From Escherichia phage MIZ6: a DNA stretch of 64,000 nucleotides. The number at the start of each line of letters is the position of its first letter. Position 1 is the first letter of the stretch. Of the stretch, positions 374-41,365 are shown piece after piece. Below the pieces are notes generated by a model. The model made no database searches. It was given only the letters and a program-made list of their open reading frames with translations, and was not told the origin of the DNA. Location of the stretch: sequence record OR192075.1. The stretch is one strand, 5' to 3'. The position numbers and the translations under genes are program-made.

Positions 374-406
374 TTTGATTCTCCTATTTCGTTTCGTTAT
401 GTGTGT

Positions 407-435: not shown

Positions 436-448
436 CAACTTTTTAAAA

Positions 449-922
449 TTATTTGCACCAAATTCGAATGATTTCGTCTCGTTCAAATTTTTGCCAGATT
501 ACTCGGTCGCCCGCTGCCATAATACTGACAAATCCAGTTATATTTCCGGTGTACTTGCTTTTAGTTTCTGCATCATATTCAAAGAATGGAGCTTTAAGAT
601 CGCTAAACTCATCTTTTCCCACAAACTTCATAACATGACGGTGTGCGTAATATTCGCTTCTTAGTGTTGTTGTGATAGTTCCGTCATCATTTGATTTCAG
701 ATGCAATTCGGCATCTTCATAAAGACTTGCATCTCGTTGTTTACTTTCGATACCATCATTATATGTTGATTTGGTTGCACTCCAACATTGATATGTCTTA
801 TCTACATTTTCGATCTTTTCCTGTGTCATGTCAAAAAGCGGCGCAACCTTTTTCTTAGCCGCGTGCGCAACGTTGGTCATAGACAGTGCCGCAACAACCG
901 CAATAGCAATAATTTTCTTCAT
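449..922 (-). CDS. secreted hypothetical protein with Sec signal peptide
   Basis: N-terminus MKKIIAIAVVAALSMTNVAHA|AKKK; RBS AGGAGATGA. Confidence 0.6.
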   Translation of the reverse strand: MKKIIAIAVVAALSMTNVAHAAKKKVAPLFDMTQEKIENVDKTYQCWSATKSTYNDGIESKQRDASLYEDAELHLKSNDDGTITTTLRSEYYAHRHVMKFVGKDEFSDLKAPFFEYDAETKSKYTGNITGFVSIMAAGDRVIWQKFERDEIIRIWCK

Positions 923-983
923 AATATCATCTCCTTTGGTTTATATGGCGGGAGTATCTTAGCAATACTCCCTTAATACTATA

Positions 984-1265
984 TTATTCGTGATTAGTTT
1001 CGATGTTGTGCATTTTGCACCAGTTCAGCCAATCGCCCAGATCTTGATAGTTGATGCTTTTATCTGCTGCCATCGTTTTTGTCTTGATACCCATATGTGC
1101 GTTATGAGTAAGCATTTTTACAGTGAACTCAATTTTATCGCCTTTAGCTTTAACATCAACCAGTTTGGTCCACTGGCTACCAGCGCCGCGAATGTTCATG
1201 CCAACGATGTTTCCGATGTATGCTTCTTTGTTTTTCAGGATTTCGGTTGCTTTGATGAATTTCAT
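984..1265 (-). CDS. hypothetical protein
   Basis: ORF behind promoter cassette and GGAGAATCAAA RBS. Confidence 0.55.
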   Translation of the reverse strand: MKFIKATEILKNKEAYIGNIVGMNIRGAGSQWTKLVDVKAKGDKIEFTVKMLTHNAHMGIKTKTMAADKSINYQDLGDWLNWCKMHNIETNHE

Positions 1266-1335
1266 TTTTGATTCTCCAGTTCGTTTCGGTATGGGTGTAT
1301 TATGCTATGTTCTTACTTTGGTGTCAACAACTTTT

Positions 1336-1605
1336 TTAGATATTTTCAGAAATAAATTTTAAAACTTGACGTAAATGTTTCTCATCTTTGATAGTCGCCG
1401 GAAGTTCTTCTTTTACTTCCTGTGCAAGATAGATATTTCCGTTCCAAGTGAAAGATCCGTCTTCGTTTACGCGATAGCTGAACATCCACTCGCAATCATT
1501 TTCGATTTCATATACACACAGAAGGGTGTAATCGTTAAAGCTATTGATTTCAAGGTCGAAGCCGTGACGTTTTGCAAAGTTGGTAGTGGTTTTAGTCAGT
1601 GCCAT
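1336..1605 (-). CDS. hypothetical protein
   Basis: ORF behind promoter cassette; same 5'UTR as gene ending at 121. Confidence 0.55.
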   Translation of the reverse strand: MALTKTTTNFAKRHGFDLEINSFNDYTLLCVYEIENDCEWMFSYRVNEDGSFTWNGNIYLAQEVKEELPATIKDEKHLRQVLKFISENI

Positions 1606-6761: not shown

Positions 6762-8250
6762 CGAATACCTCTTTTACTGTATTTGCAGTGGTCTTGTCGT
6801 AGCGAATACGTTTGATGATTGGGAGAAATAAAGAGAACTCCGGTTCATCTTCTTTACGTGATTTGCTGCGGATATACCCGTTGCATGTCATCTCAATAAC
6901 TTTTCCAATCAGGTTATGACGGTCAGCCCATAACATTTCTCGGTCGAGTTCATTTCGACGATCGAACGGAATTACACGTTCAGTACCATCATCACCTTTT
7001 TCGGTTGTAGTGTCGGTTAATCCCGATCCGGTGTTAGTCATCATTCGTCCGCACGCACTACGGACAGTAAAACCGCCTACCTTATTGGGGTCTTTACTAT
7101 GCGGATATACATCAACAATTTCCGCGTCGAAGTCAATCACTTCTTTAAATTTAACCTGATCTTTACTACGGCGATCTTCAAATACACCATGTAAATTTTT
7201 AAGGATAATACCTTCTAAGCCCATGTTGACATAACGATGATATACTTCGCGAGCTTCATCGATATTGTTAACTACAGTGTTTTCGATGATCTGAACACGA
7301 GGATCGTTAAGTTCTTCAACAATCTGTTTTAGTTCTTCGAATCGATCTTTATATTGCTTCGTTGCTTTCTCGTTTCCGTAATACACATCACGGTCGATAA
7401 CATCCCAGACAGTGTAAACAATACATTGGGCTTCTTCTTTTGGAATAGTTCCTTTAAGTGATTTGTTGAGGATACCATTTCCGGTCTGACGATCTGCAAC
7501 AACGGATTCTTTCACTGCTTCCGCTACTGGCGTTAATGGCATTTCCTCTTCTTCAAATATCCATGACAGAGTACCATCATAAACGCTTTCAACGAAGTTC
7601 TGCGCTGGTGTTTGCGAAAGGGTAGGCATATATACCAATTCGCCATCTAGAACAATTCCACGGCCTCGTAGACGCTCTAAAACCGCAAACAAATCATCAA
7701 GCCCTTGATAGGTATTACCTGAGCGGGTATAGATTGCTAATGTTTCCCCGTCAATATCAGCCATACCACGAGCGCCATCGCTTTTAAGTTGTGCATACGC
7801 CGGATACTTGATATTAGCAATAGTCTTATCAGAACATGACGATGCAAGGTGGCACGGCTGCTGGGGGATCAGTTTCTTCCATACCTTGTTTGCAGTAGTA
7901 GCGGAACAACCACATTCCAGATCACGATTCAGGACCATCATTGCAACTTTAGCATCATCTTCTGACAAGCAAGTCAGAGTATCGGTAACTAGCTGTAATG
8001 CTGCATTACCAGTTACTTGACGCGTGGCAAGTTTATTTTTAAAGACCTGTAATGCACCGGATAAAGACAATACAGACGAATAGCGAGACGGTTTATCGTA
8101 TTTCTTTACGCCAAACGTAACCTGTTTGCAATATGCCAGATAAAAGCATTCTTTCAGCGTTTCATTGCTCGCGGATTCTTTCAGAATCTTTTCTTTCAGC
8201 GATGTTTTGTCTGTTGCTGCAAGCTGATTAATGATATTAAGAATTGACAT
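6754..8250 (-). CDS. 30: ATP-dependent DNA ligase (T4 gp30-like)
   Basis: KxDG adenylation motif (QLKSDGARG); T4 gp30-like length and C-terminus; ATG at 8250 with RBS GAGGTGAAA. Confidence 0.9.
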   Translation of the reverse strand: MSILNIINQLAATDKTSLKEKILKESASNETLKECFYLAYCKQVTFGVKKYDKPSRYSSVLSLSGALQVFKNKLATRQVTGNAALQLVTDTLTCLSEDDAKVAMMVLNRDLECGCSATTANKVWKKLIPQQPCHLASSCSDKTIANIKYPAYAQLKSDGARGMADIDGETLAIYTRSGNTYQGLDDLFAVLERLRGRGIVLDGELVYMPTLSQTPAQNFVESVYDGTLSWIFEEEEMPLTPVAEAVKESVVADRQTGNGILNKSLKGTIPKEEAQCIVYTVWDVIDRDVYYGNEKATKQYKDRFEELKQIVEELNDPRVQIIENTVVNNIDEAREVYHRYVNMGLEGIILKNLHGVFEDRRSKDQVKFKEVIDFDAEIVDVYPHSKDPNKVGGFTVRSACGRMMTNTGSGLTDTTTEKGDDGTERVIPFDRRNELDREMLWADRHNLIGKVIEMTCNGYIRSKSRKEDEPEFSLFLPIIKRIRYDKTTANTVKEVFDV

Positions 8251-8716
8251 TTTCACCTCGTTTTGTTAAACGTTCACGAATATCATTGAGGATACTACAA
8301 AATTCCGATTCAGTCAATATAGTCTTTAACGGATCAGTTCCACCTATGCTATGACGTAATTTCTTATTTCCGGTAGAGAGTAATGCTTTACAAAATTCTG
8401 GGTTATTCCGTGCCATCGTAACAAATGCCAGATGTACCAGTCTGTAATAATGCTCACTCATTCGATGAATCGGGCGACCCTGAAAATATAACATGTGATT
8501 CTCAATCTTTTCAGTTCTTCCGGTTCTTTTTGCTTTGCCACCGTGCATCAAAAAGATTTCTCTTTGTCTCTGAGGGTTCTTAAATCTTAGCCCCTGTAAA
8601 AATCCTTCTGTGCTGTTAATATCGCAACCAAATAGACGGAATGGTCTTTTATTGAAATTACTCAATTCACCCGATGGATAAGGTCCACCCGCATAGATAT
8701 CAATTTCAGAAGTCAT
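8237..8716 (-). CDS. NADAR (YbiA/DUF1768-like) domain protein
   Basis: GELSNF ... FLQGLRF ... SEHYY motifs resembling E. coli YbiA. Confidence 0.6.
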   Translation of the reverse strand: MTSEIDIYAGGPYPSGELSNFNKRPFRLFGCDINSTEGFLQGLRFKNPQRQREIFLMHGGKAKRTGRTEKIENHMLYFQGRPIHRMSEHYYRLVHLAFVTMARNNPEFCKALLSTGNKKLRHSIGGTDPLKTILTESEFCSILNDIRERLTKRGENVNS

Positions 8717-15444: not shown

Positions 15445-16604
15445 AGATATTTCCCGAATCGGTTGTAGTCGTCGTCTGTTAAATCGGTATTAACCTGAGA
15501 TACCAGATACATGATCTCTACTTCCTGCGCTGCATTCTGTACTTCGTCAGAGTTCAACCATTTACGCATCCACGGTAACGGATGACGACGAACACTAAAC
15601 GGGCTTTTCAGTCCGGCAGCACGCATACGGGAATCTGCCAGGTATTCTATATAGGTTTTCAGAATTTCCGGTGACAGGTTAGGAATTGCCCCCATTGCGA
15701 ATAGGTGGTCTACCCATTCTTTTTCTTGCTCGACAACATCCAGAAAGATTTTCGTTGCTTCGCCTTCAAGTTCTTCCGCAATCTGTTTCCACTCATCACC
15801 ATCAACCCCCGTTTGCCATTGACGAATAATGTATTGTGTGCCTTTTAAGTGAAGTTGTTCATCACGCGCAATAAATTTCATGATCTTCGCGTTACCTTCC
15901 AGTAAACCACGTTCGGCAAAGCTGAAAGTACATGCAAAGGACACATAAAAACGGATTGCCTCCAGTGCATTAACGCAATGCATACACAGATAGAGTGATT
16001 CCATCAGATTGCGTTTAGTTTCTTCCACGTACGAAATGCTATCAGAATATGCATCAAGGTCAAATTCATTTTCAGAAGAACGACTAAAACTTTCTTTAGC
16101 GTCCTCGTATTCACGGATTTTCACCAGAACATCATCATAATATTTCCCGATAGATTCCGCTCGCTTCATGATAGCAGGGTTATCGATGATCTGGTCGAAC
16201 TCACTAGCCGGATCAATGAAACAGTTACGCATAATGTGTGTATAGCTTCGGCTATGAATCGTTTCGCTGAATGTCCATGTTTGCAACCATGTATCGAGAG
16301 TTGGATCAGATACAATTGGACCAAATGCTGCGGACGGTGCGCGACCTTGAATAGAATCAAGTAATGTCTGATACTTCAAGTTTTCAGTAAAGAAACGCTT
16401 TTCAACGTCACCCATATTAAGATATTGAATGCGGTCGGTTGCAAGTGAAATTTCTTCTGGACGCCAGAAAAATGACAATTGCTTTTCGATCAGTTCTTCA
16501 AATACTTGATGACGCTGAATATCATAGCGAGCTATACCCAACCCACTACCCAGAAACATCGGTTCGTTCATAATATCAACATGTTCGCGGTTAAATACGC
16601 TCAT
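15441..16604 (-). CDS. nrdB: ribonucleotide reductase beta subunit
   Basis: T4 NrdB-like length (387 aa), ferritin-like diiron-site motifs; adjacent to nrdA. Confidence 0.9.
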   Translation of the reverse strand: MSVFNREHVDIMNEPMFLGSGLGIARYDIQRHQVFEELIEKQLSFFWRPEEISLATDRIQYLNMGDVEKRFFTENLKYQTLLDSIQGRAPSAAFGPIVSDPTLDTWLQTWTFSETIHSRSYTHIMRNCFIDPASEFDQIIDNPAIMKRAESIGKYYDDVLVKIREYEDAKESFSRSSENEFDLDAYSDSISYVEETKRNLMESLYLCMHCVNALEAIRFYVSFACTFSFAERGLLEGNAKIMKFIARDEQLHLKGTQYIIRQWQTGVDGDEWKQIAEELEGEATKIFLDVVEQEKEWVDHLFAMGAIPNLSPEILKTYIEYLADSRMRAAGLKSPFSVRRHPLPWMRKWLNSDEVQNAAQEVEIMYLVSQVNTDLTDDDYNRFGKYL

Positions 16605-21659: not shown

Positions 21660-21989
21660 TCAAATCAGTTTAAAGAAGTTTTCGTTTACATTTTCTTCTG
21701 TGATTGCTGTCTTAAATTCTTGACCGTTATCCGGTGTGATGAAATAACGGTCAGAATAATCACGAAAACGTTTTAAGTGAGATACCCCAACATTAACACC
21801 ATTTTCCCAAAAACGAAAGGTAATCATTTTTGGTTCATATCGATAGTCGCTGGTTAACACAGTACCATCACCGCGACGGGCTTCATAAACCGTAATACAT
21901 TCACGATTAGCGGCTTTAAGGCATTCTTCAATAGTGCCGCACGAGATAATACTTACTTTTTCATCTACGATTTGTTCTACAGTCCACAT
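21660..21989 (-). CDS. hypothetical protein
   Basis: ORF; RBS GAGAGGATTA; promoter cassette. Confidence 0.55.
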   Translation of the reverse strand: MWTVEQIVDEKVSIISCGTIEECLKAANRECITVYEARRGDGTVLTSDYRYEPKMITFRFWENGVNVGVSHLKRFRDYSDRYFITPDNGQEFKTAITEENVNENFFKLI

Positions 21990-22044
21990 AATATAATCCT
22001 CTCTTTGTTTTGATGTTTGTATTATACACTATTGCGTTGCGCTG

Positions 22045-22374
22045 TCAACCTTTTTGTTCCATGAAAAGCGGTGCTGTTTCTTCTTTCAGTTTAATAACTA
22101 GCGCGGAAACTTCATCAAGAAAATCTTTTTCCATATGAGCAAGCATTGATTTAGAATCTTTGATGACTTTCAAAGAATATTCACTTAGATTTCCTTGTCC
22201 TAACAATAATGCAGGATACACACTATGTGGGATCTCGATTTCATGATATTCGCTCATATTATAATATTTGTGAATTTTTAAATCTATATTTCTTCGTTGT
22301 ACGTCCACATCAGCAATGACATACAGAAGTTCGATTTTATCACTTTTCTGGGAAAGGGTAGCATTCAAAAACAT
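22045..22374 (-). CDS. hypothetical protein
   Basis: ORF; promoter cassette. Confidence 0.55.
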   Translation of the reverse strand: MFLNATLSQKSDKIELLYVIADVDVQRRNIDLKIHKYYNMSEYHEIEIPHSVYPALLLGQGNLSEYSLKVIKDSKSMLAHMEKDFLDEVSALVIKLKEETAPLFMEQKG

Positions 22375-22454
22375 TGTTAATCCTCCGTTGTTTCGATGAG
22401 TTCATTATACATTACCTCGCCAACATGTCAATACATTTTCATAAAATTTTAGGC

Positions 22455-22483
22455 AATAAAAAAGCCTCCCCGAAGGAAGGCTT
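22455..22483 (-). terminator. rho-independent terminator after gene 32
   Basis: imperfect hairpin AAGCCTTCC..GGGAGGCTT plus TTTTTATT on minus strand. Confidence 0.5.
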
Positions 22484-22492
22484 TAAAATTCA

Positions 22493-23461
22493 TTACATCC
22501 CTAACAGAGCGTCAAGATCATCCAGATCAGAAGCGGAGGAAGTACCGCCACCCAGGTCCAGAGATGCCATCAGGTCATCAGCGGAAGAATCTAACGCCGT
22601 GCTAGCTGCGTTAATACCAACTACAGTGCTAGCTGCGGTAGTACCAGCGTCGAATGCATTCATCTGTGCGTCAAAATCATCAAGCTGGCTGTTAATCGCT
22701 GCCGCAGCACTGGAAGCCGCAGCACCAGCTACCATAGAAACGCCCATAGTTTTCTTAAATTTGGTTTCCAGTTCATCGAACGGTTTAAACTGGCTAGGCG
22801 CTACAATCTCACTCAGATCAACCATGTTTTCCATCAGATATTTCTGATATGCTTCGTCTTCAATTTTCGGAAGCTGTGATTGCTGCATGAAACGAGAATC
22901 ATCATAGTTCTGGTGTTTATCAACCTTCTTAGCTTTCAGGAGGAAGTTAGCACCGGAGAACACACAAGTTACATCTACCGGAACTTCGCCCATGTCGGTA
23001 TTCACGTTCACCATTGCAACGATCTTATCATAAATTTTCTGACCGAAGCGGAATTTGAATACCTTACCTTCATTTTCTGGTGCTTGAGGATCTTTCAGTA
23101 CCAGAATGTTTGCGTAGTAAGACGCTTTACGCTTAATCAGTTGCCATTCGGTTTTATCGGTATTGTATAGGTCTTTTTCGTTAATATATTTGCACACAGG
23201 GCAAGAATCAAAATCACCGTGGGTGCTGGAGCAGTTTTCCCAATACCATTTACCATTAACTTTGAAGGAATGGTTTACCAGTTTCACAATCGGCAGACCG
23301 TCTTCTGTCTTAGACGGCAGGAAGCGAATCAGGGCTTCACCGTTACCTGCTGCATCAGTCTTAATCTTCCACTCTTTCGGATCTTCTTTGGAGAAACCGT
23401 TGCCACCTTTCAGTGCGGCCAGTTGAGCTTGCAGTTTGGAAGAATCTTGGCGTTTAAACAT
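22493..23461 (-). CDS. 32: single-stranded DNA-binding protein (T4 gp32-like)
   Basis: near-colinear match to T4 gp32 (LPSK, CSSTHGD.DSCPVC zinc site, acidic C-terminus). Confidence 0.93.
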
Positions 23462-23497
23462 ATTCACTATTCCTTCTTTTGATTAATTTACTAGACT

Positions 23498-23525
23498 ATT
23501 ATACAGATTTAAATTTACTTGTCAA
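23498..23525 (-). promoter_or_regulatory. sigma70-like promoter upstream of gene 32 (TTGACA, 16 nt, TATAAT)
   Basis: hexamers on minus strand; -35 overlaps stop of gene 59. Confidence 0.5.
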
Positions 23526-24202
23526 CTATTTGTTTCGGCTTTTAATTGAGATATTTCTTTACACTCTTTAACTACTTTAACAAATAATGCTCTTGCTTTT
23601 GCGGCGTCAATAACAAGTAGTTTCTTGTACGCCTTCATTTTAACACTATAAGTTTGCCAAATCAAGTCTTTGGCTACCTTGTCGTGTTCGTCGATTATAT
23701 TTAGAAAGCTATCTAACAACATAAAAGACTCAAACGATATAATCCGATTTTGCAGTAGTTTAAAGATACCGCTAGTTTCGGTTGCGGGATTGTATGTGAT
23801 TAGCTCTTTAAGAGTAACCCCGCGTTTCTCGGAGAAGTATACCAGACTTTTAATGTCATCGTCAAATCGTGTTGCTGCATCGGTTATCTTTCCTATGTAT
23901 TCCATATAAAAGCCGTATGCGTCAACATCAGTGATTTCACCTACCCATGCATCGGTATTGGCTACCAGATTGCTTAGGAATAGGAAGTATAGTTCTCTTA
24001 GATTGTACTTTTCCGCTAATTTTGCGAAATAATACTTATCTCTGCGTTTATTGAATGCGGCATCAGACAACCGCATCCTCCAATTGTATTTTACACAATC
24101 ATAACGCCCGTTCATATGAGCTTTCATCATGCAATATAACATATACACAGATTTAGCATTAATTCGCATATCTGGATCTGGAGGAAGACGGTTTCTGATC
24201 AT
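23522..24202 (-). CDS. 59: helicase loader (T4 gp59-like)
   Basis: aligns to T4 gp59 (KSVY.LY.M.K.HMNG.YD..KYNW.MR.SDAA..KRRDKY). Confidence 0.9.
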   Translation of the reverse strand: MIRNRLPPDPDMRINAKSVYMLYCMMKAHMNGRYDCVKYNWRMRLSDAAFNKRRDKYYFAKLAEKYNLRELYFLFLSNLVANTDAWVGEITDVDAYGFYMEYIGKITDAATRFDDDIKSLVYFSEKRGVTLKELITYNPATETSGIFKLLQNRIISFESFMLLDSFLNIIDEHDKVAKDLIWQTYSVKMKAYKKLLVIDAAKARALFVKVVKECKEISQLKAETNS

Positions 24203-24211
24203 ACATACCCC

Positions 24212-24481
24212 TTAAATATCGAGAGTGTTGGTCGGTTCGTCGATCACTCCCTTCCTGAGCGTTCTATTTACTATACATTCTTGTGTGATCTTGTCAATAA
24301 TGGACACCGGAATATACTTCTGATAGTGACCATATTCGATAGAGTTTTCCTCTACAAACTGCGTTGTCGCTTCAAGATAAGTCAACCCCTCTTCAACAAC
24401 CAGTTTTTCGATTGCAAGACCGTTTGCTGTTTTATTCGCGGCTTTTACCGCATGTTCATTAAGCATTGAACACCCGATCAT
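24212..24481 (-). CDS. hypothetical protein (gp33-like by position only)
   Basis: synteny between 59 and dsbA-like; no motif confirmation. Confidence 0.35.
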   Translation of the reverse strand: MIGCSMLNEHAVKAANKTANGLAIEKLVVEEGLTYLEATTQFVEENSIEYGHYQKYIPVSIIDKITQECIVNRTLRKGVIDEPTNTLDI

Positions 24482-24734
24482 AGAGTTCTACTGCTTCATC
24501 GCGTTCTGCTTCGAAGGTTTCGCGCTGTTGTTGGTGATACAGTTTAAACAGAATGCCCCACATTTTACCATCTACGCCTAATTCTTCTTTAGCACGCTGC
24601 TTGATCTCTTTGATCTTATCGCCGTATGCTTCTTGAATGGTTTTCTGATCGCTGGCTTCTTTAATCAGTTGTGCCAGGGTATTTCCGTGCACTGCTTCGT
24701 CAAATACTACTTTTTCTTTTTTCTGTTCAGTCAT
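24459..24734 (-). CDS. hypothetical protein (DsbA-like dsDNA-binding protein by position)
   Basis: 91 aa, RBS AGAGGGTTAA; synteny. Confidence 0.4.
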   Translation of the reverse strand: MTEQKKEKVVFDEAVHGNTLAQLIKEASDQKTIQEAYGDKIKEIKQRAKEELGVDGKMWGILFKLYHQQQRETFEAERDEAVELYDRVFNA

Positions 24735-24738
24735 AATA

Positions 24739-25335
24739 TTAACCCTCTTTCGTCATTAATTGAAAACCACGTTCAGCTTTTGAGATTTCGCTAGGACTTA
24801 AATCGTCACCAACATATTCTAGCATCATTTCTCGGATAATGTCAAGTGCTTTTTCATCACCTGATTTTAACTCGAACTCAAGTTCATAGTGAGCATCTCC
24901 AATTCCTTCGCCTAAACGTCGATAATAGAAAGTGTCTTTGCACATTTCCACTATACCACAACCCATATCTAGAGTCAATGACTTGCGATGTGTCATTATT
25001 TGCATTAGAGGAATGACATGTTCTGAGTTCACCCCTAGACTATCAACAAAATGGGCGAACTCATCCCATTTTGAAAACGTCATTTCCTCACGGTTGAACA
25101 GTCCAGATTCACCATCGACAATTTTGACCATGACTAATGTTCTATAAACGTCAAGTCGTGCATAAATTCCTTTTCGACGTAGTGCATGGTCTTCGGTATC
25201 ATAATAAAATTCGTGTTTTAATATGTTATCTCGGTCGACGAGATTGTACCCGTCATACATTGCCACCCACACATCACAGATTGTTTCCACGCCTTCATGT
25301 GAATGAGCATAGTATTTTAATTCAAGCTCTCTCAT
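24739..25335 (-). CDS. CYTH-like triphosphate tunnel metalloenzyme domain protein
   Basis: N-terminal E-x-E-x-K (ELELK) and C-terminal E-x-E-x-E (ELEFE) signature; Arg cluster LRRKG. Confidence 0.4.
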   Translation of the reverse strand: MRELELKYYAHSHEGVETICDVWVAMYDGYNLVDRDNILKHEFYYDTEDHALRRKGIYARLDVYRTLVMVKIVDGESGLFNREEMTFSKWDEFAHFVDSLGVNSEHVIPLMQIMTHRKSLTLDMGCGIVEMCKDTFYYRRLGEGIGDAHYELEFELKSGDEKALDIIREMMLEYVGDDLSPSEISKAERGFQLMTKEG

Positions 25336-25345
25336 ATGTCAACCC

Positions 25346-26293
25346 TTAGAACTCACCAATTTTCTGCAACATTTTAACTAACGCATTTGTTACAAAATAG
25401 TTATAAATTTTACCGCGTGGTGCTGGTTTAGATTTTTCCCATGCTAACAAAATTTCATATTCGATGTTATCGGGAATAAATTCAAAATCAATAAGTTCGC
25501 GGTTTTCGTCAAAGCGTCGTGCTTCTTCCTCTGTCATCAAAGACTTTGGATCTTCGGCATCGAAAATTTGCTCTAACCATTTGGTTGCAATTGGTTTAGC
25601 TCGTTCCCCTTCCAGTCGTGAGATAATGAAATCGCTACGGCACTTGATAGAAGCTACACCGTCTTTTGCGTCACCCTTAACACATTTTACCATAAGGTCT
25701 TTGTAAGGGCTACCGTATTTGCATTTCTTCCATGCTTTCTGTACTGGTGCCCACTGTTTCACGTTTTTGTATTTGTGCAACTGTGTGTAGTCACCATCGC
25801 CGGAGTTGATTAGCACCTGGCGACCTTCTACAGAAAACTTTTTAGTTAATACAGCGATTATATCATCCGCTTCAACTTTGTCAACCTTAATAACGTGATA
25901 AGGCATGTTCTCTTTAAACTCTTCGGTGATCTTATTGATCGCAGCAAAGATCATCTCCCAATCACGCGGATCTGCGTCTCGTTTTTCCTTACGGTTGCGT
26001 TTATAGTAAGGGGCGATATCACGTCGCCAGTAACCTTTACTTGAATCAAAGGCAAGTACCGTAATTGGGTATTGCTCTTTGAATTTTGTCATATTATAAC
26101 GCATGGTGTCAAGGATAAGATGACGGATCATGCCTTCATTAATAGGATCTTCCGGTTTAAAGGTATGCGAGATAGTAGCAATCATAAGCTGCGACATATC
26201 AATCAAATGCACACCTTCCGGCAGTTTATCTTCTGGATCATCGAAGAAATCATTAAGTGTAGCGGTAGTTTTTGTAAACGGGTTATACGTCAT
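25346..26293 (-). CDS. rnh: RNase H / 5'-3' flap exonuclease (T4 Rnh-like)
   Basis: near-colinear match to T4 RNase H (MIRHLILD, GYWRRD, KVDKVEADDIIAVL, DGDYTQLHKY.NVKQW, RGKIYNYF). Confidence 0.93.
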   Translation of the reverse strand: MTYNPFTKTTATLNDFFDDPEDKLPEGVHLIDMSQLMIATISHTFKPEDPINEGMIRHLILDTMRYNMTKFKEQYPITVLAFDSSKGYWRRDIAPYYKRNRKEKRDADPRDWEMIFAAINKITEEFKENMPYHVIKVDKVEADDIIAVLTKKFSVEGRQVLINSGDGDYTQLHKYKNVKQWAPVQKAWKKCKYGSPYKDLMVKCVKGDAKDGVASIKCRSDFIISRLEGERAKPIATKWLEQIFDAEDPKSLMTEEEARRFDENRELIDFEFIPDNIEYEILLAWEKSKPAPRGKIYNYFVTNALVKMLQKIGEF

Positions 26294-26295
26294 AA

Positions 26296-26481
26296 TTAAG
26301 TTCTCTCCACTCTCACAACAACATATTCACCAAACGAGTTAGATACTTCACGGTCATACCCGTACTTTTCCATAACTCGCAGAATTGCATTGTTTAATTC
26401 GGCACGGAAATAATTATAATCCTTATCAGGGATTCTGTCAACTACCCATTTTGCACCTTCTGACAAATCAACTTTAACCAT
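26296..26481 (-). CDS. hypothetical protein
   Basis: ORF with RBS AAGAGGATGA. Confidence 0.5.
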   Translation of the reverse strand: MVKVDLSEGAKWVVDRIPDKDYNYFRAELNNAILRVMEKYGYDREVSNSFGEYVVVRVERT

Positions 26482-33233: not shown

Positions 33234-35990
33234 ATGGCAGATTTAAGCAGAATCCAATTTAAACGCACTAGCACTAAAGGTCGTAAACCTGATGCTAGTG
33301 CGATGAATCCGGGGGAATTGGCAATCAACCTTGCGGATCAATATCTTCTTACTAAAAATGATTCCGGTGCTATTATCAATTTAAGTTGTCCTCCGGTGTA
33401 TGACCGACAAGTTAGATTCGCTGGTAAGGTTGACGGTGACAACTATATTTTAGGTAAAACTGCTAACTATATGGATGATTCAACCGCTCGCGACCTTAAC
33501 AAATTTGGTGCGTTTCGAACGAATAATGCTGATGGATGGTCTAACTTGATTCTGAACATTCCTCATTCTAGCGGTAAAGCACACGGTCGCGGGTTTGAAT
33601 TTCAATATGGTTCTAGTTCCTCTCAGGTTAAAACCTATGGCTTTGATCAGGATGGTAACAAGAGATTCAGTTACCGCATGTATCATGAAGGCGATAAACC
33701 TACACCATCGGAATTGAACGTTTACAGCAAACAAGAAGTAGATAGAATGTTTGTTAAAAACGTTAAAATGTCTACTCCTCCCGATGTAAGTCGAGGATAT
33801 TTCAAAATTGCTACCGCCATGATCCCCCAGCAAGGAAAAATGGCATTTATTCGTATCTATGGTGGTAATGGATATAACGTTAACTCTATGGATCAAGTTG
33901 ACTTTGTAGAAATCGTGATTCGTGGTGGGAATGGAAATCCTAAAGGTGTTAGTATTGCAGCATATCGACGAAATGCTTTAAATCAGCTTGAAGTATTTGC
34001 TATTAATACATCTGGTGATAACTATGATATCTATGTAAAATATGGTCGATACACCGATAACGTTATTGTAGAATTTGGAAAAACGGTCGATGTTAATTTA
34101 ACTGTTCATGATGTTCCGGCTTTTTCGGAAGCAAAACCTGCTGGTACTACCTTTGAAGGTCGTGTTATTACGATGTTCAACACCGAAAACAAAGCCGGAA
34201 CGTTGATGTTTGATAATAACTCACAAGCAACCTATGATATTGTGAGCCTTAGCAATGCACCTGATAATAGCCGAAATTATCTGCGTAAATTCCGTAGCAA
34301 AGCGAATGAAACAATATGGCATGAAACTGTTCAAGGTGATGTGTATCGTCTGGCTACTGGTTCCACCGACCAAAAAGAAGTATTAAAAATTGTTGGTAGT
34401 GATGGTTTATTTGTCAATAGACTTCATCTGCAAGGCAATAACGCGATTCGTATGTGGCGTCCTACTGGTTGTAGTAACTATTTTGAATATATGGATCAGC
34501 GAGACGGGGCTAATAAACGTCAAGGCTGGTTTGGTTTTGGTTCTACAGAAACCAACGATTTTCAATGGTATAGTGACGAAGGTAAAAACTTTGTTAAGCT
34601 AGAAGCAAGTGGTCAAGTATCTTTAAGCGCAGGTGCAACCAAAATTGTATACACTAATGGTCAATATGTAGCTGCCAATTCTGATGCATACCGTATGATC
34701 TTTGGTAATTATGGTGCATTCTGGCGTAATGACGGCACTAAAGTTTATCTTCTTTCTACTGCCGAAAATGATCGTTTTGGTGGATGGAATAGCTATCGTC
34801 CATTCATTTATGATTTAACTTCCGGTAACGTTCAATTAGGCGGTGATGGTAACGAAGATGCATTAACGTTAGAATGTGCTTCTCGTGCCGCTCGCTTTAG
34901 TAATGACGTTTACATTAAGAAAGGGCTTTTGACTTTCGACGCTGGGCGATTAAATTCCCGCGATTACTTCCGGTTTAACCATTGGGGCGATAGCAATAAC
35001 GGTCGCGATAACATCCTACAGATTGAAGACAGTCAGGGCGCACATTTTATCACTGAACGTGCTATGGGTACTGGTAACATAACAACACGTTTTAGAGGCT
35101 TTGTACGTGTAGAATCTGGTGAAATTGCATTTGATGCTAACCGTGGTTCTTCTTCGCAATTTAGTCTCCATACATGGGGTAATGAATCACGAAAACAAGT
35201 TTTTGAATGTAAGGATGCAACAAGTTATCATTGGTATACCGAACGTACTGCGGGTGGCACTGGTCCGGTTAAGTTCTCTGTTGCAGGTTCTTTCTATAGC
35301 GGAAGCGATGTTAACGTAGGCGGTAGTCTGAATTTTGGTAATGCTATTCAACGCGGCGCTAGCGTCATTACTATAGATTCTGGTTCTGCGGGTGCTGGTT
35401 CTTTTGCATCTCAACATGATGATAACGTCAAAGCACCTATTTTCCAACGTTTAGACCGTGGTGATGCGTCTATATATGTTCCTTTGATTAAGCAACGTTA
35501 TGTTCAAGGTGCAGTAACATTCTCGTTGGGTATGCTTCTTAACGAAGGTTCATGGCGAGTTCATGTTAAAGGTTCTGGTGTTGAATCTAATACTACCTTC
35601 TATAAAAACGGCGATTTCCAAGCTGGACGCAATGGTAACTTTAACGACGTTTACATTCGCTCTGACTCTCGCCTGAAAATCAACAAGGAAGAGTATAAAG
35701 AGAATGCTACCGATAAAGTAAATAATCTTAAGGTATATTCCTACGATAAGGTTAAATCTTTAACCGACCGTACTGTAATCGCTCATGAAGTTGGTATTAT
35801 TGCTCAGGATCTTGAAAAAGAATTGCCGGAAGCAGTAACAACTTCTAACATCGGCGACCCAGATAACCCAGAAGAGATCTTAACAATTTCTAACTCTGCT
35901 GTCAACGCTCTTTTAATTAAGGCGTTTCAGGAAATGAGCGAAGAATTGAAAGCCGTTAAAGCTGAACTAGCGGAACTTAAAAAGAATTAA
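33234..35990 (+). CDS. 37: long tail fibre distal subunit (T4 gp37-like) with C-terminal intramolecular chaperone domain
   Basis: N-terminus and AGAGSFASQ..YVP.IKQRYVQG block match T4 gp37; C-terminal SDSRLK autocleavage-type motif and coiled-coil tail. Confidence 0.88.
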   Translation: MADLSRIQFKRTSTKGRKPDASAMNPGELAINLADQYLLTKNDSGAIINLSCPPVYDRQVRFAGKVDGDNYILGKTANYMDDSTARDLNKFGAFRTNNADGWSNLILNIPHSSGKAHGRGFEFQYGSSSSQVKTYGFDQDGNKRFSYRMYHEGDKPTPSELNVYSKQEVDRMFVKNVKMSTPPDVSRGYFKIATAMIPQQGKMAFIRIYGGNGYNVNSMDQVDFVEIVIRGGNGNPKGVSIAAYRRNALNQLEVFAINTSGDNYDIYVKYGRYTDNVIVEFGKTVDVNLTVHDVPAFSEAKPAGTTFEGRVITMFNTENKAGTLMFDNNSQATYDIVSLSNAPDNSRNYLRKFRSKANETIWHETVQGDVYRLATGSTDQKEVLKIVGSDGLFVNRLHLQGNNAIRMWRPTGCSNYFEYMDQRDGANKRQGWFGFGSTETNDFQWYSDEGKNFVKLEASGQVSLSAGATKIVYTNGQYVAANSDAYRMIFGNYGAFWRNDGTKVYLLSTAENDRFGGWNSYRPFIYDLTSGNVQLGGDGNEDALTLECASRAARFSNDVYIKKGLLTFDAGRLNSRDYFRFNHWGDSNNGRDNILQIEDSQGAHFITERAMGTGNITTRFRGFVRVESGEIAFDANRGSSSQFSLHTWGNESRKQVFECKDATSYHWYTERTAGGTGPVKFSVAGSFYSGSDVNVGGSLNFGNAIQRGASVITIDSGSAGAGSFASQHDDNVKAPIFQRLDRGDASIYVPLIKQRYVQGAVTFSLGMLLNEGSWRVHVKGSGVESNTTFYKNGDFQAGRNGNFNDVYIRSDSRLKINKEEYKENATDKVNNLKVYSYDKVKSLTDRTVIAHEVGIIAQDLEKELPEAVTTSNIGDPDNPEEILTISNSAVNALLIKAFQEMSEELKAVKAELAELKKN

Positions 35991-38742: not shown

Positions 38743-38934
38743 TCACTTATCGTTAAGAAGTTCTAAAACTTTCTGTCGTACTTTGTCAATATTGGTTGAT
38801 TCAAAAACTGTACGGTATCCCCAGCTTTGACCGTATGAGCGCGAGCAATCCCCATAACCCCATTGTTCAACCTGATAATATTCAAGGAATGGGTGCTGCC
38901 GAACTATGATACCATCGCGATTAAAAATTACCAT
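38743..38934 (-). CDS. hypothetical protein
   Basis: RBS GTGAGGATTA. Confidence 0.5.
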   Translation of the reverse strand: MVIFNRDGIIVRQHPFLEYYQVEQWGYGDCSRSYGQSWGYRTVFESTNIDKVRQKVLELLNDK

Positions 38935-38957
38935 AATATAATCCTCACGTCAACAAC

Positions 38958-39236
38958 TTATTTTCGGTTGTACTTCTGCCACTTTCGGTAATACTGCTTG
39001 TAATATTGTTTAATGTTTGGTGGTTCGTCACTATACATGTTATCAACCATCATGTCAATAAGACCTTCCGGTGTTTGATAGTTACCCGCTCGAATGAGTT
39101 CCTTAATCAAAAGATCTTGTGTCGCTTTATACTTGACAATAACAACTGTCTTTTCTGCCTTTCCAATTCCGATCCGGTCGTTAGCTCTCATAGCATCCCA
39201 CCAATCTTTTTTAAACTTCATGTTGTTAAATTTCAT
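38958..39236 (-). CDS. hypothetical basic protein
   Basis: RBS AAGAAGGG. Confidence 0.5.
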   Translation of the reverse strand: MKFNNMKFKKDWWDAMRANDRIGIGKAEKTVVIVKYKATQDLLIKELIRAGNYQTPEGLIDMMVDNMYSDEPPNIKQYYKQYYRKWQKYNRK

Positions 39237-39239
39237 AAT

Positions 39240-40040
39240 TTAACCCTTCTTATATTCGCAAACATATTGAGTACCATAATCATAGCTAATGCGACCTTTC
39301 TCGATGACTTCAAAGCGGATTTCATCGTTTTCCCCTACCCACATTTTGTACTCGTTGAAGTATCCTGCTACATCCGGTTTGCTCATACCAACAACCATAT
39401 TTTTATATTGTTTGCTGCGTGTCAGATTTGATTTAAACACTTCGCGCTCATCAACATATACGAAAGAAGACAATTCACCTTCGGTCATGGTCATTTTCAG
39501 CTTGCCGCCCTTGTTGCCATAAGTAGAGTTGCCATACAATGGATCTTTGCGGCTGTCTGTTTCAATACCATCAATGATTTTCCATGTAAATTTTGCAATG
39601 CACTGATAAGTGATAGATCCAGAGATTTTCTCTTCTTTCTTCTGTTCTTCCACCACTTTTTCTTCCTGTTTCGGTTGTTCTTCTTCAACCTTCGCAGAAG
39701 TCTCTGAATCGCTTTCTGACTCGGTTTCTTCTTTAGGTAATACATTCATCAAGTTTTGGATTTGAGCGTTGTATACAGCCTCCAGTGGCTGGATCTGTCC
39801 GATATTGATCATTGTATCACGAACAGTTTTATTCCAGTTGCGTTGCTCTTGTTTCAGAGACGGATCAATCTTAACAGCCTTAACATACACCTCATGAAGT
39901 TTCGAATCCAGTGCGGAGATTGACTCATTAGCACAAATAAACTTCTCTGATTTGGTAGTGGCTTTAGCGCAATCAAAGGACGCAGCATTAGCACCGAAAG
40001 CAGTAGCGGAAAGAACGATCGCAGCGATAATGTTTTTCAT
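39240..40040 (-). CDS. secreted protein with LprI/DUF1311-like N-terminal domain
   Basis: signal peptide MKNIIAAIVLSATAFGANA; DCAKATT..EKFICANE..ALD..L...Y Cys pattern; acidic linker. Confidence 0.5.
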   Translation of the reverse strand: MKNIIAAIVLSATAFGANAASFDCAKATTKSEKFICANESISALDSKLHEVYVKAVKIDPSLKQEQRNWNKTVRDTMINIGQIQPLEAVYNAQIQNLMNVLPKEETESESDSETSAKVEEEQPKQEEKVVEEQKKEEKISGSITYQCIAKFTWKIIDGIETDSRKDPLYGNSTYGNKGGKLKMTMTEGELSSFVYVDEREVFKSNLTRSKQYKNMVVGMSKPDVAGYFNEYKMWVGENDEIRFEVIEKGRISYDYGTQYVCEYKKG

Positions 40041-40114
40041 AATATATTCCTCAATGTTTTGTCTTGATGGGAGTATCTTACTACTCCCTTAATCCGGTGT
40101 CAACTACTTTTAAA

Positions 40115-40414
40115 TTATTTTCGCCATTCACCGGAAACAATAAAGTTTGTAAAGTGATCGTGGTCCGTGATAACGTCATTAAGTACCATATGTGGATACA
40201 CTTTAGTGATAATTTTACTAAGTACCATATGCGGATATGCTTTAGTGTAATCACGTTTACGATCAGTCATCCAGCCAACGAAAGTTGGTGCAAAGTACGG
40301 TACACCGTCAGACGATGCCATATTAAACCCTTTATCAACCATAAATGCAGCCGCCCTAAGATTTTTAATTGAAGTAGTGCGACTAATTTCAAAAACTTTA
40401 TCGGTAAAATTCAT
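40115..40414 (-). CDS. hypothetical protein containing internal tandem repeat (KAYPHMVL / KVYPHMVL)
   Basis: ATG at 40414 with G-rich RBS; 39-bp DNA tandem repeat inside. Confidence 0.5.
   Translation of the reverse strand: MNFTDKVFEISRTTSIKNLRAAAFMVDKGFNMASSDGVPYFAPTFVGWMTDRKRDYTKAYPHMVLSKIITKVYPHMVLNDVITDHDHFTNFIVSGEWRK
40181..40255. repeat. about 39-bp direct tandem repeat, 2 copies
   Basis: aagtaccatatg(t/c)ggata(c/t)(a/g)ctttagtg... repeated back to back. Confidence 0.6.
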
Positions 40415-40415
40415 T

Positions 40416-40625
40416 TTAAGCCCCCGCTCGTGCATTAATACGCATTTTCTGCATAGCCATGATCTGGTTTACTGCTTCTTCTTTACGTTCTTGCGTGATA
40501 ACGTGACCAGATTCCGCAAACTCTCCCGCAACTTCTTCTACGATCTCGCGAACTTGAGAACGTCCAAAGATGCGGTTTCCTTCGTAGCTCATAAACTCGG
40601 TTACTACTTGCTCGATAGATTTCAT
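40416..40625 (-). CDS. hypothetical protein
   Basis: promoter cassette and GGAGAATCA RBS. Confidence 0.55.
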   Translation of the reverse strand: MKSIEQVVTEFMSYEGNRIFGRSQVREIVEEVAGEFAESGHVITQERKEEAVNQIMAMQKMRINARAGA

Positions 40626-40691
40626 GTGATTCTCCTTTCGTTTCGGTGTGGGAGTATGTTAATACTCCCATTTCTTTACGTCAACCAGTTT

Positions 40692-40934
40692 TTAGAAATT
40701 TTTCGCTTCTTCTTCGGTCATCATCACCGCGCATTCGTGCATAACTTTGAAAACCGGGTCAATCATATCGAATGCTTCGCTGGACAGTTTACGAGAAGCG
40801 ATTTTGATTGCTTCAACGTCTTCTACTACAGGAACAAAAACAGTTTTCAGTTCGTCGAGCACGGCAGCTTCTTTTTCATTCAGGAAGATCCCAGCGTCGT
40901 ACAGTGCAACTTCGATAACATTAACTTTAACCAT
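40692..40934 (-). CDS. hypothetical acidic protein
   Basis: RBS GGAGGAAATAAA; promoter cassette. Confidence 0.55.
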   Translation of the reverse strand: MVKVNVIEVALYDAGIFLNEKEAAVLDELKTVFVPVVEDVEAIKIASRKLSSEAFDMIDPVFKVMHECAVMMTEEEAKNF

Positions 40935-40973
40935 TTTATTTCCTCCAGTTCGTTTCGGTATGGGAGTATAATA

Positions 40974-41198
40974 CTACCGATGACCTTTGGCGTCAACTGC
41001 TTTTTTATTATTTTCGTGAAAATTTTTCGTCGCCTCATGTGCTTTTCGCTGGGCTTCTTGTTGTGCTTGCTGGCGTGCTGCCTCTTGTGAAGCCATAACG
41101 GAAGCATTTGCAGCAGTTACAGCCGCTACCATCGCTGCGGTATTAGCATTTACAGTACATGCACTAGCCAGCAAAGCAATTGCAATCATTTTCTTCAT
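40974..41198 (-). CDS. small secreted protein or lipoprotein
   Basis: signal peptide MKKMIAIALLASAC; RBS AAAGGGGAAA. Confidence 0.5.
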   Translation of the reverse strand: MKKMIAIALLASACTVNANTAAMVAAVTAANASVMASQEAARQQAQQEAQRKAHEATKNFHENNKKAVDAKGHR

Positions 41199-41365
41199 AG
41201 TTTCCCCTTTAGGTTATCTTCGACCTTCACCCATTCCGCGTATTCTTGCGCGGCTACTTTCGGATTTAGTCCGTCTTCGTACATTGCTTCAAGTAATTCT
41301 TCGTCGGTGGGCTTATACCCTAGATAAGCCTCCACCTGATTTTTCCAAATTTTATACCAGTTCAT
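41195..41365 (-). CDS. small hypothetical protein (56 aa)
   Basis: ATG at 41365 with RBS GGTGA. Confidence 0.45.
   Translation of the reverse strand: MNWYKIWKNQVEAYLGYKPTDEELLEAMYEDGLNPKVAAQEYAEWVKVEDNLKGKL

What the first reader, a model, noticed from the sequence alone, without database searches (positions are those of the whole stretch)
24739..25335. CYTH-like triphosphate tunnel metalloenzyme inserted between dsbA-like and rnh
T4 has no gene at this position. The 198-aa product begins with E-x-E-x-K (ELELK) and ends with E-x-E-x-E (ELEFE), the hallmark of CYTH domains (class IV adenylate cyclase, triphosphatases). A phage CYTH enzyme could hydrolyse or synthesise nucleotide messengers.
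Basis: partly seen in the sequence, partly recalled or inferred. Interest (0 to 1): 0.55.

Follow-up and report, generated by a model that had tools for sequence, protein, structure and literature searches.

The report
Phage YgiF-like triphosphate tunnel hydrolase
A 198-residue gene between dsbA and rnh in this RB49-like coliphage encodes a complete CYTH (triphosphate tunnel) phosphohydrolase most like E. coli YgiF; the domain call is correct but already in public records, and its substrate and role in infection are untested.

Summary
The ORF is real: 24739-25335, minus strand, 198 aa. It lies between dsbA and rnh, which are directly adjacent in T4. The window is a Krischvirus (RB49-like) genome, 100% identical here to phages MIZ2 and MIZ3.

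Published discriminators argue against a class IV adenylate cyclase: there is no HF motif, the strand motif is ExE rather than ExA, and the Arg is retained. I therefore read it as a two-metal triphosphate hydrolase. Its substrate is unknown.

- The gene is present in all 58 Krischvirus records and in uncultured relatives, always in this slot.
- It probably has early sigma-70 promoters upstream.
- Codons 1-150 form a mosaic divergence island in a 95-100% identical backbone, still under purifying selection.

The CYTH/YgiF similarity was already recorded in the RB49 GenBank note and in Nolan 2006. It is a new member of a known kind, of modest interest.

The parts
24739..25335 (-). CYTH/TTM gene, 198 aa (orthologue of RB49p245)
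25315..25329 (-). Codons 3-7, ExExK (E3, E5, K7). Equivalent to YgiF E4/E6/K8: metal site 2 and triphosphate binding
   Evidence: Invariant in A1 and A2; role taken from PMC4641920
25150..25164 (-). Codons 58-62, Y-A-R-L-D, the strand that is xxRxR in other TTMs. R60 is the catalytic Arg, D62 replaces the second Arg, and Y58 sits at the ThTPase Trp position
   Evidence: MAFFT alignment A2; hairpin register in the AF2 secondary structure; loop lengths of P0043 and P0046. The HMMER alignment gives a register shifted by two residues
24865..24885 (-). Codons 151-157, E-L-E-F-E-L-K on the last tunnel strand. E153 = YgiF E160 (metal 1); E155 = YgiF E162 (metal 2)
   Evidence: Invariant; alignment to 5a60; roles from PMC4641920
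24769..24783 (-). Codons 185-189, S-K-A-E-R of the C-terminal plug helix (K186, R189)
   Evidence: Invariant in A2 and aligned with SKAARG of YgiF
24886..25335 (-). Divergence island: codons 1-150. DNA identity to typical Krischvirus genomes is 76-90%, and about 50-60% to phage Skers, inside a 95-100% identical backbone
   Evidence: Sliding identity; dS 0.35-0.50 and dN/dS 0.25-0.36, against dS 0.05-0.18 and dN/dS 0.03-0.13 in rnh and dsbA; one of few low-identity segments against RB49 over 45 kb
24739..24885 (-). Backbone-like 3' part of the gene (codons 151-198), 92-100% DNA identity in all Krischvirus genomes compared. Its last codons carry the GAGGG Shine-Dalgarno of dsbA
25343..25347 (-). 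AAGGG Shine-Dalgarno-like element 7 nt upstream of the ATG, overlapping the rnh stop codon (tight operon packing)
   Evidence: Read directly from the sequence
25857..25884 (-). Perfect 12/12 sigma-70 promoter-like site (TTGACA-16-TATAAT with TG) inside rnh, 520 nt upstream. Probable early promoter for the gene
   Evidence: Inferred function; not tested
26413..26441 (-). Perfect 12/12 sigma-70 promoter-like site upstream of rnh. Probable early promoter of the rnh-CYTH-dsbA-33-59 block
   Evidence: An equivalent perfect site at 23498-23525 is annotated as an early promoter in RB49
24816..24845 (-). 11/12 promoter-like site (TTGACA-18-TAGAAT with TG) inside the 3' part of the gene, facing dsbA
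   Evidence: A site of the same form is found in the 3' part of the homologous gene in relative L009
24459..24734 (-). dsbA (downstream neighbour, 4-nt spacer)
   Evidence: Pfam Phage_DsbA E 5e-22
25346..26293 (-). rnh, T4-type RNase H / 5'-3' exonuclease (upstream neighbour, 10-nt spacer)
   Evidence: Pfam RNaseH_C E 3e-37 and 5_3_exonuc_N E 6e-18

Best explanation
The gene encodes a stand-alone, catalytically competent triphosphate tunnel metalloenzyme (CYTH superfamily). It corresponds to the tunnel domain of E. coli YgiF without the CHAD domain.

Inferred mechanism, by homology with YgiF, AtTTM3 and SaTTM:
- The triphosphate of the substrate is clamped in an eight-stranded beta-barrel by K7, R60, K71, R82, R117 and the plug-helix residues K186 and R189.
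- Metal 1 is held by E153 plus the substrate.
- Metal 2 is held by E3, E5 and E155. It activates a water molecule that attacks the terminal phosphate, releasing orthophosphate and a diphosphate product.

It is a hydrolase, not a class IV adenylate cyclase. It is probably transcribed early by host RNA polymerase as part of the rnh-CYTH-dsbA-33-59 block. It is a core gene of Krischvirus and of uncultured relatives.

The substrate is not determined. My ranking is: inorganic triphosphate or short polyphosphate, as for YgiF (about 35-40%); an organic triphosphate such as an NTP, dNTP or nucleotide-derived signal (about 30%); a 5'-triphosphate RNA or primer end (about 10-15%).

The fast, mosaic evolution of codons 1-150, with a frozen catalytic core, suggests a function at the phage-host interface rather than housekeeping. 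That last step is inference.

For: Sequence: Pfam CYTH E 7.6e-5; 13 of 19 relatives match, best 5.8e-8. The family profile against PDB returns only YgiF, full length, E 0.004. An exhaustive profile search of 1.84 billion representatives gives about 200-aa CYTH proteins and about 500-aa proteins of the size expected for CYTH-CHAD as the next relatives.

Catalytic residues: E3, E5, K7, R82, E84, R117, E153, E155, S185, K186 and R189 are invariant, and R60 and K71 nearly so, in an alignment that includes cellular CYTH proteins and YgiF. Their roles come from PMC4641920 and PMC8233210.

Hydrolase rather than cyclase: only two residues precede ExExK, so there is no HF motif. The strand motif is ExE, not ExA. 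The Arg is retained (criteria).

Selection: dN/dS is 0.14-0.36.

Distribution: the gene is present in all 58 Krischvirus records that carry the flanking genes. It occupies the same slot in three divergent metagenomic relatives.

Expression: there are perfect sigma-70 consensus sites upstream on the coding strand, and one such site in this block is an annotated early promoter in RB49.

Fast evolution: CYTH identity is 32-58% where the neighbouring genes are 65-99% identical. The divergence island has sharp borders.
Against: - No biochemical data exist for any member of this clade, and I found no paper on the function of any phage CYTH.
- The Pfam score of this protein is 0.2 bits below the gathering threshold. 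NCBIfam gives no hit.
- The second Arg of the RxR strand is replaced by Asp in the close family (Asn in the distant relative P0045). A HMMER alignment would instead put Tyr58 on the catalytic Arg position. If that register were right, activity could be impaired.
- The structure is a prediction.
- For the PPPi option specifically, E. coli extracts already have abundant PPPase activity from inorganic pyrophosphatase, and YgiF's own physiological role is doubtful (PMC3440374). A bare PPPase therefore gives a phage no obvious benefit.
- Early expression is inferred only from consensus matches.
Confidence: 0.78

Rival explanations
1. Organic-triphosphate hydrolase used for counter-defence or nucleotide-pool control. 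The enzyme would remove the gamma-phosphate from a nucleotide or nucleotide-derived molecule, such as a non-canonical (d)NTP, an alarmone like pppGpp, or a triphosphate-bearing immune signal, rather than from PPPi.
For: The close family has an invariant Tyr58 at the position where thiamine triphosphatase uses Trp53 to stack the organic moiety and where inorganic TTMs have small residues. The second Arg is replaced by Asp, which alters the phosphate-binding wall. Consensus early promoters suggest early expression. The gene evolves much faster than its neighbours and shows mosaic alleles like the tail-fibre tip, a pattern common in host-interface genes. PPPi hydrolysis is already abundant in the host. 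Iyer and colleagues proposed NTP-pool roles for CYTH in jumbo phages (PMC7824862).
Against: The closest structure, YgiF, hydrolysed no ATP, GTP or ITP in vitro. The aromatic position is Val or Ile in the more distant clade members P0044 and P0045. There is no PADLOC or anti-defence family hit. dN/dS is below 1, so there is no direct sign of positive selection. No candidate signal is known.
Confidence: 0.3
2. Polynucleotide 5'-triphosphatase. It would convert ppp-RNA to pp-RNA or p-RNA, either to speed RppH/RNase E-dependent decay of host transcripts or to process the pppApC primers that the adjacent RNase H removes.
Confidence: 0.12
3. Class IV (CyaB-type) adenylate or nucleotide cyclase, as annotated in some GenBank records. 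It would make cAMP or another cNMP to manipulate the host.
Against: All three published AC-IV determinants fail. There is no HF motif, because only Met-Arg precede ExExK. The strand motif is ExE (E153, E155) rather than ExA. The first Arg is retained (R60) rather than replaced by a small residue. The nearest relative, YgiF, has no cyclase activity.
Confidence: 0.03
4. Dispensable or decaying passenger gene, or a non-catalytic binder, with no enzymatic role.
For: The island has relaxed constraint relative to its neighbours (dN/dS 0.25-0.36 against 0.03-0.13). One record (G2494) has the gene split into two ORFs. T4 lacks the gene.
Against: The gene is intact in 57 of 58 records. All catalytic residues are invariant down to 32% identity. 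dN/dS is well below 1. The same slot is kept in relatives whose neighbouring proteins are 65-80% identical.
Confidence: 0.04

Closest known systems
E. coli YgiF (PDB 5a60/5a61), inorganic triphosphatase, CYTH-CHAD
   Different: The phage protein is the tunnel domain only, 198 aa, with no CHAD domain. The second Arg of RxR (YgiF R58) is Asp62, and YgiF Gly54 is Tyr58. Identity is only 22-24%. It is expressed from a lytic phage operon. Its substrate is untested.
Single-domain bacterial and archaeal TTMs (NeuTTM, CthTTM, SaTTM, BH2851)
Mammalian thiamine triphosphatase (PDB 3bhd, 5a64)
   Different: ThTPase keeps the second Arg (R57), where the phage protein has Asp. The aromatic residue is not conserved in the more distant phage clade members. 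Identity is 13-18%.
Class IV adenylate cyclase CyaB (PDB 2fjt, 3n0z)
   Different: The phage protein lacks the HF extension, has ExE rather than ExA, and retains the Arg. A cyclase reaction is therefore not expected.
Cet1-type and viral RNA 5'-triphosphatases (yeast Cet1, mimivirus, poxvirus D1, baculovirus LEF-4)
   Same: Virus-encoded TTM-fold enzymes that hydrolyse the gamma-phosphate through the same acidic-patch and metal chemistry.
Other phage CYTH proteins (Aeromonas phages Aeh1 ORF004c, 65.2 and D3; jumbo-phage CYTH)
   Same: CYTH domains recur in T4-like and jumbo phages and are uncharacterised.
   Different: They are not orthologues. Their Foldseek TM scores to this model are 0.35-0.53, and they are not found by tblastn with clade members. 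This clade is restricted to the dsbA-rnh slot of Krischvirus-like phages.

Membership tests
CYTH / triphosphate tunnel metalloenzyme superfamily (Pfam PF01928) | N-terminal ExExK motif on strand 1 | tested here: met
   E3-L-E5-L-K7 is invariant in 19 close and 15 distant sequences
CYTH / triphosphate tunnel metalloenzyme superfamily (Pfam PF01928) | Eight-stranded antiparallel beta-barrel tunnel closed by a C-terminal plug helix | tested here: met
CYTH / triphosphate tunnel metalloenzyme superfamily (Pfam PF01928) | Score at or above the Pfam gathering threshold | tested here: inconclusive
   23.0 bits against a cut-off of 23.2 for this protein. 13 of 19 relatives match at E<=0.01, best 5.8e-8. 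P0043 scores 23.4. Most database homologues carry a precomputed PF01928 hit
CYTH / triphosphate tunnel metalloenzyme superfamily (Pfam PF01928) | ExE on the last tunnel strand (metal 1 and metal 2 glutamates) | tested here: met
   E151-L-E153-F-E155. E153 and E155 align with YgiF E160 and E162 and are invariant
CYTH / triphosphate tunnel metalloenzyme superfamily (Pfam PF01928) | Invariant catalytic Arg of the RxR strand (YgiF R56, AtTTM3 R52) | tested here: met
   R60 aligns with YgiF R56 in MAFFT alignment A2. This is consistent with the hairpin register in the model and with the loop lengths of P0043 and P0046. Caveat: the ungapped HMMER alignment shifts the register by two residues
CYTH / triphosphate tunnel metalloenzyme superfamily (Pfam PF01928) | Second Arg of the RxR strand (YgiF R58, ThTPase R57) | tested here: not met
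   Asp62 is invariant in the close family, and Asn in P0045. The equivalent R54A mutation in AtTTM3 had little effect on catalysis, so this does not argue against activity
CYTH / triphosphate tunnel metalloenzyme superfamily (Pfam PF01928) | Divalent-metal-dependent hydrolysis of a triphosphate substrate | not testable with these tools
   Needs purified protein
YgiF-type CYTH-CHAD proteins (cluster 1 of PMC8233210) | C-terminal CHAD domain following the tunnel domain | tested here: not met
   The protein ends at residue 198, straight after the plug helix. There is no CHAD hit in Pfam, and dsbA starts 4 nt downstream
YgiF-type CYTH-CHAD proteins (cluster 1 of PMC8233210) | Specificity for inorganic triphosphate | not testable with these tools
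   YgiF data are in PMC3440374. There are no data for the phage protein
Class IV adenylate cyclase (CyaB, AC-IV) | HFxxxxExExK N-terminal extension for base stacking | tested here: not met
   Only M1 and R2 precede E3. Criterion
Class IV adenylate cyclase (CyaB, AC-IV) | Second Glu of ExE replaced by Ala (ExA) | tested here: not met
   E155 is present and invariant. Criterion
Class IV adenylate cyclase (CyaB, AC-IV) | First Arg of RxR replaced by a small residue (Val, Cys or Leu) | tested here: not met
   R60 is retained under the favoured register. Under the alternative register the residue would be Tyr, which is not small
Thiamine triphosphatase (cluster 8 of PMC8233210) | W/Y-x-R-x-R motif | tested here: inconclusive
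Cet1-like RNA triphosphatase (Pfam PF02940) | Profile match to mRNA_triPase, or closest fold match among TTMs | tested here: not met

The most novel reading that the evidence does not exclude
The most novel reading is that this enzyme is an early, fast-diversifying counter-defence or host-takeover factor with a conserved TTM active site. It would either destroy a triphosphate-bearing nucleotide, such as an immune signal, alarmone or toxic non-canonical (d)NTP, or act as the gamma-phosphatase that turns ppp-RNA into pp-RNA to trigger mass decay of host transcripts. The mosaic N-terminal alleles would then reflect an arms race with host factors that sense or inhibit it.
Probability: 0.15. Interest if true: 0.7.

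Novelty: new member of a known kind. Interest (0 to 1): 0.3.

Why it matters
No phage CYTH/TTM enzyme has a known substrate or role. This one is experimentally tractable: it is small, confidently modelled, has a complete active site, and is present in every sequenced Krischvirus, a genus used in E. coli phage collections. It sits in a fixed slot among replication and late-transcription genes, yet it evolves several times faster than they do. Finding its substrate would show what triphosphate chemistry a T4-like phage needs that T4 itself lacks. It could also reveal a new nucleotide-level point of phage-host conflict. In practical terms, the 'adenylate cyclase' annotations of this gene in GenBank are probably wrong.

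Tried and rejected
- NCBIfam and PADLOC scans gave nothing.
- A single-sequence search of PDB gave only marginal hits. The TriTu immunity protein at E 0.25 and UDP-glucose pyrophosphorylase at E 0.68 were dismissed as noise once the family profile and the fold search both converged on YgiF.
- The Pfam BOFC_N hit (E 0.037) was dismissed as noise.
- I considered a recent capture of host ygiF and rejected it: identity is only 22-24%, and GC content is uniform at 38-40%.
- I considered positive selection as the cause of the divergence island. It is not supported. dS is itself raised 3-10 fold and dN/dS is 0.25-0.36, so the island looks like old alleles exchanged by recombination, with relaxed but still purifying constraint.
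- I considered that a nearby homing endonuclease drives the mosaic. Skers and G2494 both carry the HNH gene between 59 and 32 but have very different CYTH alleles, so there is no link.
- tblastn with the divergent members P0044 and P0045 found no further phage genera.
- Five literature searches found no functional study of a phage CYTH.
- The HMMER and MAFFT alignments disagree on the register of the RxR strand. I favour MAFFT for the reasons given in the full report, but I could not inspect model coordinates.

Full report
**Observation.** The ORF is exactly as described: 24739-25335 on the minus strand, ATG to TAA, 198 aa. Residues 3-7 read ELELK and residues 151-155 read ELEFE. The second motif is on the last barrel strand, 44 residues before the C-terminus, not at the end of the protein. 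All neighbours lie on the same strand and were identified by Pfam and PHROGs:
- gp32 (22493-23467)
- gp59 (23522-24202)
- gp33 (24212-24481)
- dsbA (24459-24734)
- the ORF
- rnh (25346-26293)
- a 61-aa ORF (26296-26481)
- gene 34, on the opposite strand

The spacers are 10 nt (rnh to ORF) and 4 nt (ORF to dsbA). AAGGG lies 7 nt before the ATG, and the dsbA Shine-Dalgarno sits inside the last codons of the ORF. In T4, dsbA and rnh are 8 nt apart with nothing between them. The window is a Krischvirus (RB49-like) genome, 100% identical over this region to phages MIZ2 and MIZ3.

**Is it a CYTH protein?** Yes.
- Pfam CYTH scores E 7.6e-5 at 23.0 bits, just under the 23.2-bit gathering score. 13 of 19 relatives match, best 5.8e-8, and most database homologues carry a precomputed PF01928 hit.
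- A profile of 19 homologues finds a single PDB sequence, E. coli YgiF, aligned end to end (E 0.004).
- An AlphaFold2 model built on that alignment is confident (pLDDT 90.1, pTM 0.83).
- Foldseek against PDB puts YgiF first (E 4e-12, TM 0.75). It is followed by Bacillus 'putative cyclases', thiamine triphosphatase, SaTTM, CyaB, Mediator Med18/20 and RNA triphosphatases.
- An exhaustive HMMER search of 1.84 billion representatives shows the clade is small, with only six representatives below 1e-10. Beyond it lie ordinary CYTH proteins of about 200 aa and proteins of about 500 aa, the size expected for CYTH-CHAD.

**Active site.** An alignment joins the phage clade, cellular CYTH proteins and YgiF. 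In it, E3, E5, K7, Y44, R82, E84, R117, E153, E155, S185, K186, R189 and G190 are invariant, and R60, K71, E130, D134 and E151 are nearly so.

According to the YgiF and AtTTM3 structures and mutants (PMC4641920) and the SaTTM study (PMC8233210):
- E3, E5 and E155 correspond to the metal-2 site that activates the attacking water.
- E153 corresponds to the universally conserved metal-1 glutamate.
- R60 corresponds to the Arg whose mutation abolishes catalysis.
- K186 and R189 lie on the plug helix.

One canonical residue differs. The second Arg of the RxR strand is Asp62, invariant in the close family and Asn in P0045. Tyr58 also occupies the position that is small in inorganic TTMs and Trp in thiamine triphosphatase.

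The register of this strand is the one uncertain point. HMMER's ungapped alignment would put Tyr58 on the catalytic Arg. MAFFT, the 63-66 hairpin loop in the model, and the ungapped match between P0043 (IYARVD-NKG-ELMLK) and the canonical P0046 (ASYRIR-DGK-EVTLK) all place R60 there. I adopt that reading.

**Hydrolase or cyclase?** Vogt et al. give three discriminators for class IV cyclases: an HFxxxxExExK extension, ExA instead of ExE, and a small residue instead of the first Arg. All three fail here. The nearest relative, YgiF, has no cyclase activity and is PPPi-specific in vitro (PMC3440374). The 'adenylate cyclase' label carried by several GenBank records is therefore probably wrong. 'Inorganic triphosphatase' (Makalu phages) is a reasonable but untested guess.

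**Distribution and context.**
- All 58 phage records that contain the flanking genes contain the gene, and all are Krischvirus. One record (G2494) has it split into two ORFs.
- tblastn with divergent members finds no other phage genus.
- The metagenomic relatives P0043, P0044 and P0045 are 46%, 34% and 32% identical. All three lie directly upstream of dsbA-33. P0043 is also downstream of rnh.
- The next hit, P0046, is a cellular archaeal gene.

The gene is therefore an old, vertically kept occupant of this slot in a branch of T4-like phages, not a recent insertion.

**Expression.** Four perfect 12/12 TTGACA-N16/17-TATAAT sites lie on the coding strand in 4.4 kb, two of them upstream of the gene (26441..26413 and 25884..25857). 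One of the four (23525..23498) coincides with an annotated RB49 early promoter. Early transcription by host RNA polymerase is the likely mode. This is inferred, not shown.

- Against seven Krischvirus genomes the region is 95-100% identical. Codons 1-150 of this gene are the main exception, apart from a ~60-nt patch in rnh and a homing-endonuclease indel listed under 'noticed in passing'. They drop to 76-90%, and to about 50-60% in phage Skers, with sharp borders at the start codon and at the ExExE strand.
- The last 48 codons are backbone-like, and almost invariant in protein sequence even in the alleles that are 57% identical overall.
- In the island, dS is 0.35-0.50 (saturated against Skers) and dN/dS is 0.25-0.36. 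In rnh and dsbA, dS is 0.05-0.18 and dN/dS is 0.03-0.13. The island is therefore a set of old alleles shuffled by recombination, under purifying but relaxed selection.
- In relatives whose dsbA, gp33 and rnh proteins are 65-80% identical, CYTH is only 32-46% identical. In Skers the neighbours are 94-99% identical and CYTH is 58%.
- Over 45 kb compared with RB49, the other low-identity stretches are mainly indels or unalignable stretches, including the distal tail fibre and a homing-endonuclease region.
- GC content is uniform.

This pattern is typical of genes at the phage-host interface, but it is not proof of such a role.

**Mechanism and substrate.** By homology, the protein is most likely a two-metal hydrolase that removes the terminal phosphate of a triphosphate held in the tunnel. 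The substrate cannot be deduced.
- For PPPi or short polyphosphate: the clear primacy of YgiF among structural relatives.
- Against PPPi: the host's abundant PPPase activity.
- For an organic triphosphate: the Tyr58/Asp62 changes, early expression and fast evolution. Against it: YgiF's inertness on NTPs, and Val or Ile in place of Tyr in the distant clade members.
- For an RNA or primer 5'-triphosphatase role: only gene position and the existence of viral TTM RNA triphosphatases, which are much more distant.

**Novelty.** The RB49 GenBank record already notes 'similar to P45267, P30871, HI1598, ygiF' for this gene. Nolan et al. 2006 list 'RB49ORF244c CYTH domain, E 0.0026' (PMC1524935); this is most probably the same gene under a different numbering, which I did not verify. 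Iyer et al. mention CYTH triphosphatases scattered in jumbo phages (PMC7824862). I found no functional work. The finding is a correct identification of a new, uncharacterised member of a known enzyme superfamily.

What this analysis adds:
- the rejection of the cyclase reading;
- the residue-level map;
- the RxR-to-RxD variant;
- the conserved slot in divergent relatives;
- the divergence island.

Interest is modest unless the substrate turns out to be a conflict-related nucleotide.

Noticed in passing
window 22404-26441, minus strand; also L008, L009, L010: Sigma-70 consensus promoters are unusually dense on the coding strand of the 32-59-33-dsbA-CYTH-rnh block. There are four perfect 12/12 sites (26441..26413, 25884..25857, 23525..23498, 22431..22404) and several 11/12 sites; in total 24 were found against 12.5+-3.7 expected. 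The same enrichment appears in divergent relatives (19 against 8.7, 12 against 5.0, 13 against 3.6). One 11/12 site (25342..25314) has its -35 in the rnh/CYTH spacer, and its -10 TAAAAT is encoded by the ExExK codons; it recurs in L008 and L009.
   Followed up: partly
window 25443-25503 (rnh codons ~263-284): A second, smaller divergence island lies inside rnh. Identity is 58-76% to Skers, RB49, GEC-3S and Phi1, but about 98% to JSE, JK32 and G2494. This indicates a separate recombination patch.
   Followed up: no
window ~23520-23534 (junction of genes 59 and 32); L001 5802-6398; L007 4298-4894: Phages Skers and G2494 carry an HNH homing endonuclease gene between 59 and 32 that is absent from this window. 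T4 has the GIY-YIG endonuclease SegG in the same slot. The position is a recurrent homing site.
   Followed up: partly
L007 2501-3096 (phage vB_EcoM_G2494): In this one record the CYTH gene is split into two ORFs of 66 and 130 aa. The cause is either a frameshift or a sequencing error. A 130-aa fragment cluster (P0037) also exists in metagenomes.
   Followed up: no
window 26296-26481, minus strand: A conserved 61-aa ORF of unknown function (phrog_3594, E 3e-31) lies between rnh and the divergently transcribed gene 34. It contains a perfect early-promoter-like site. T4 has no gene annotated at this position.
   Followed up: no
GenBank records OR352938 (AV108), MK573636 (PHB13), OR525698 (KMB43); MN894885 and MN709127 (Makalu): Public annotation of the orthologues is inconsistent: 'adenylate cyclase', 'inorganic triphosphatase' or 'hypothetical protein'. 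The cyclase label fails the published AC-IV criteria.
   Followed up: yes
window 1-1500, 2451-2600, 15901-16200, 21951-22500, 33351-35800, 38901-41300: These are the other segments with less than 85% identity, or no alignment, to RB49 in a 45-kb comparison with a median of 98%. They include the distal tail-fibre region and an endonuclease-gene indel next to gene 32. The 15901-16200 patch was not examined.
   Followed up: no
L011 / L012 (archaeal contigs, gene at 8001-8606 / 7259-7864): The nearest cellular relative of the phage clade (P0046, E 3e-13) is an archaeal stand-alone CYTH. It is encoded immediately after a PRK/uridine-kinase-family gene and lies near an RNA ligase and a NUDIX gene. 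This split arrangement resembles the fused kinase-TTM of plant TTM1/2.
   Followed up: no
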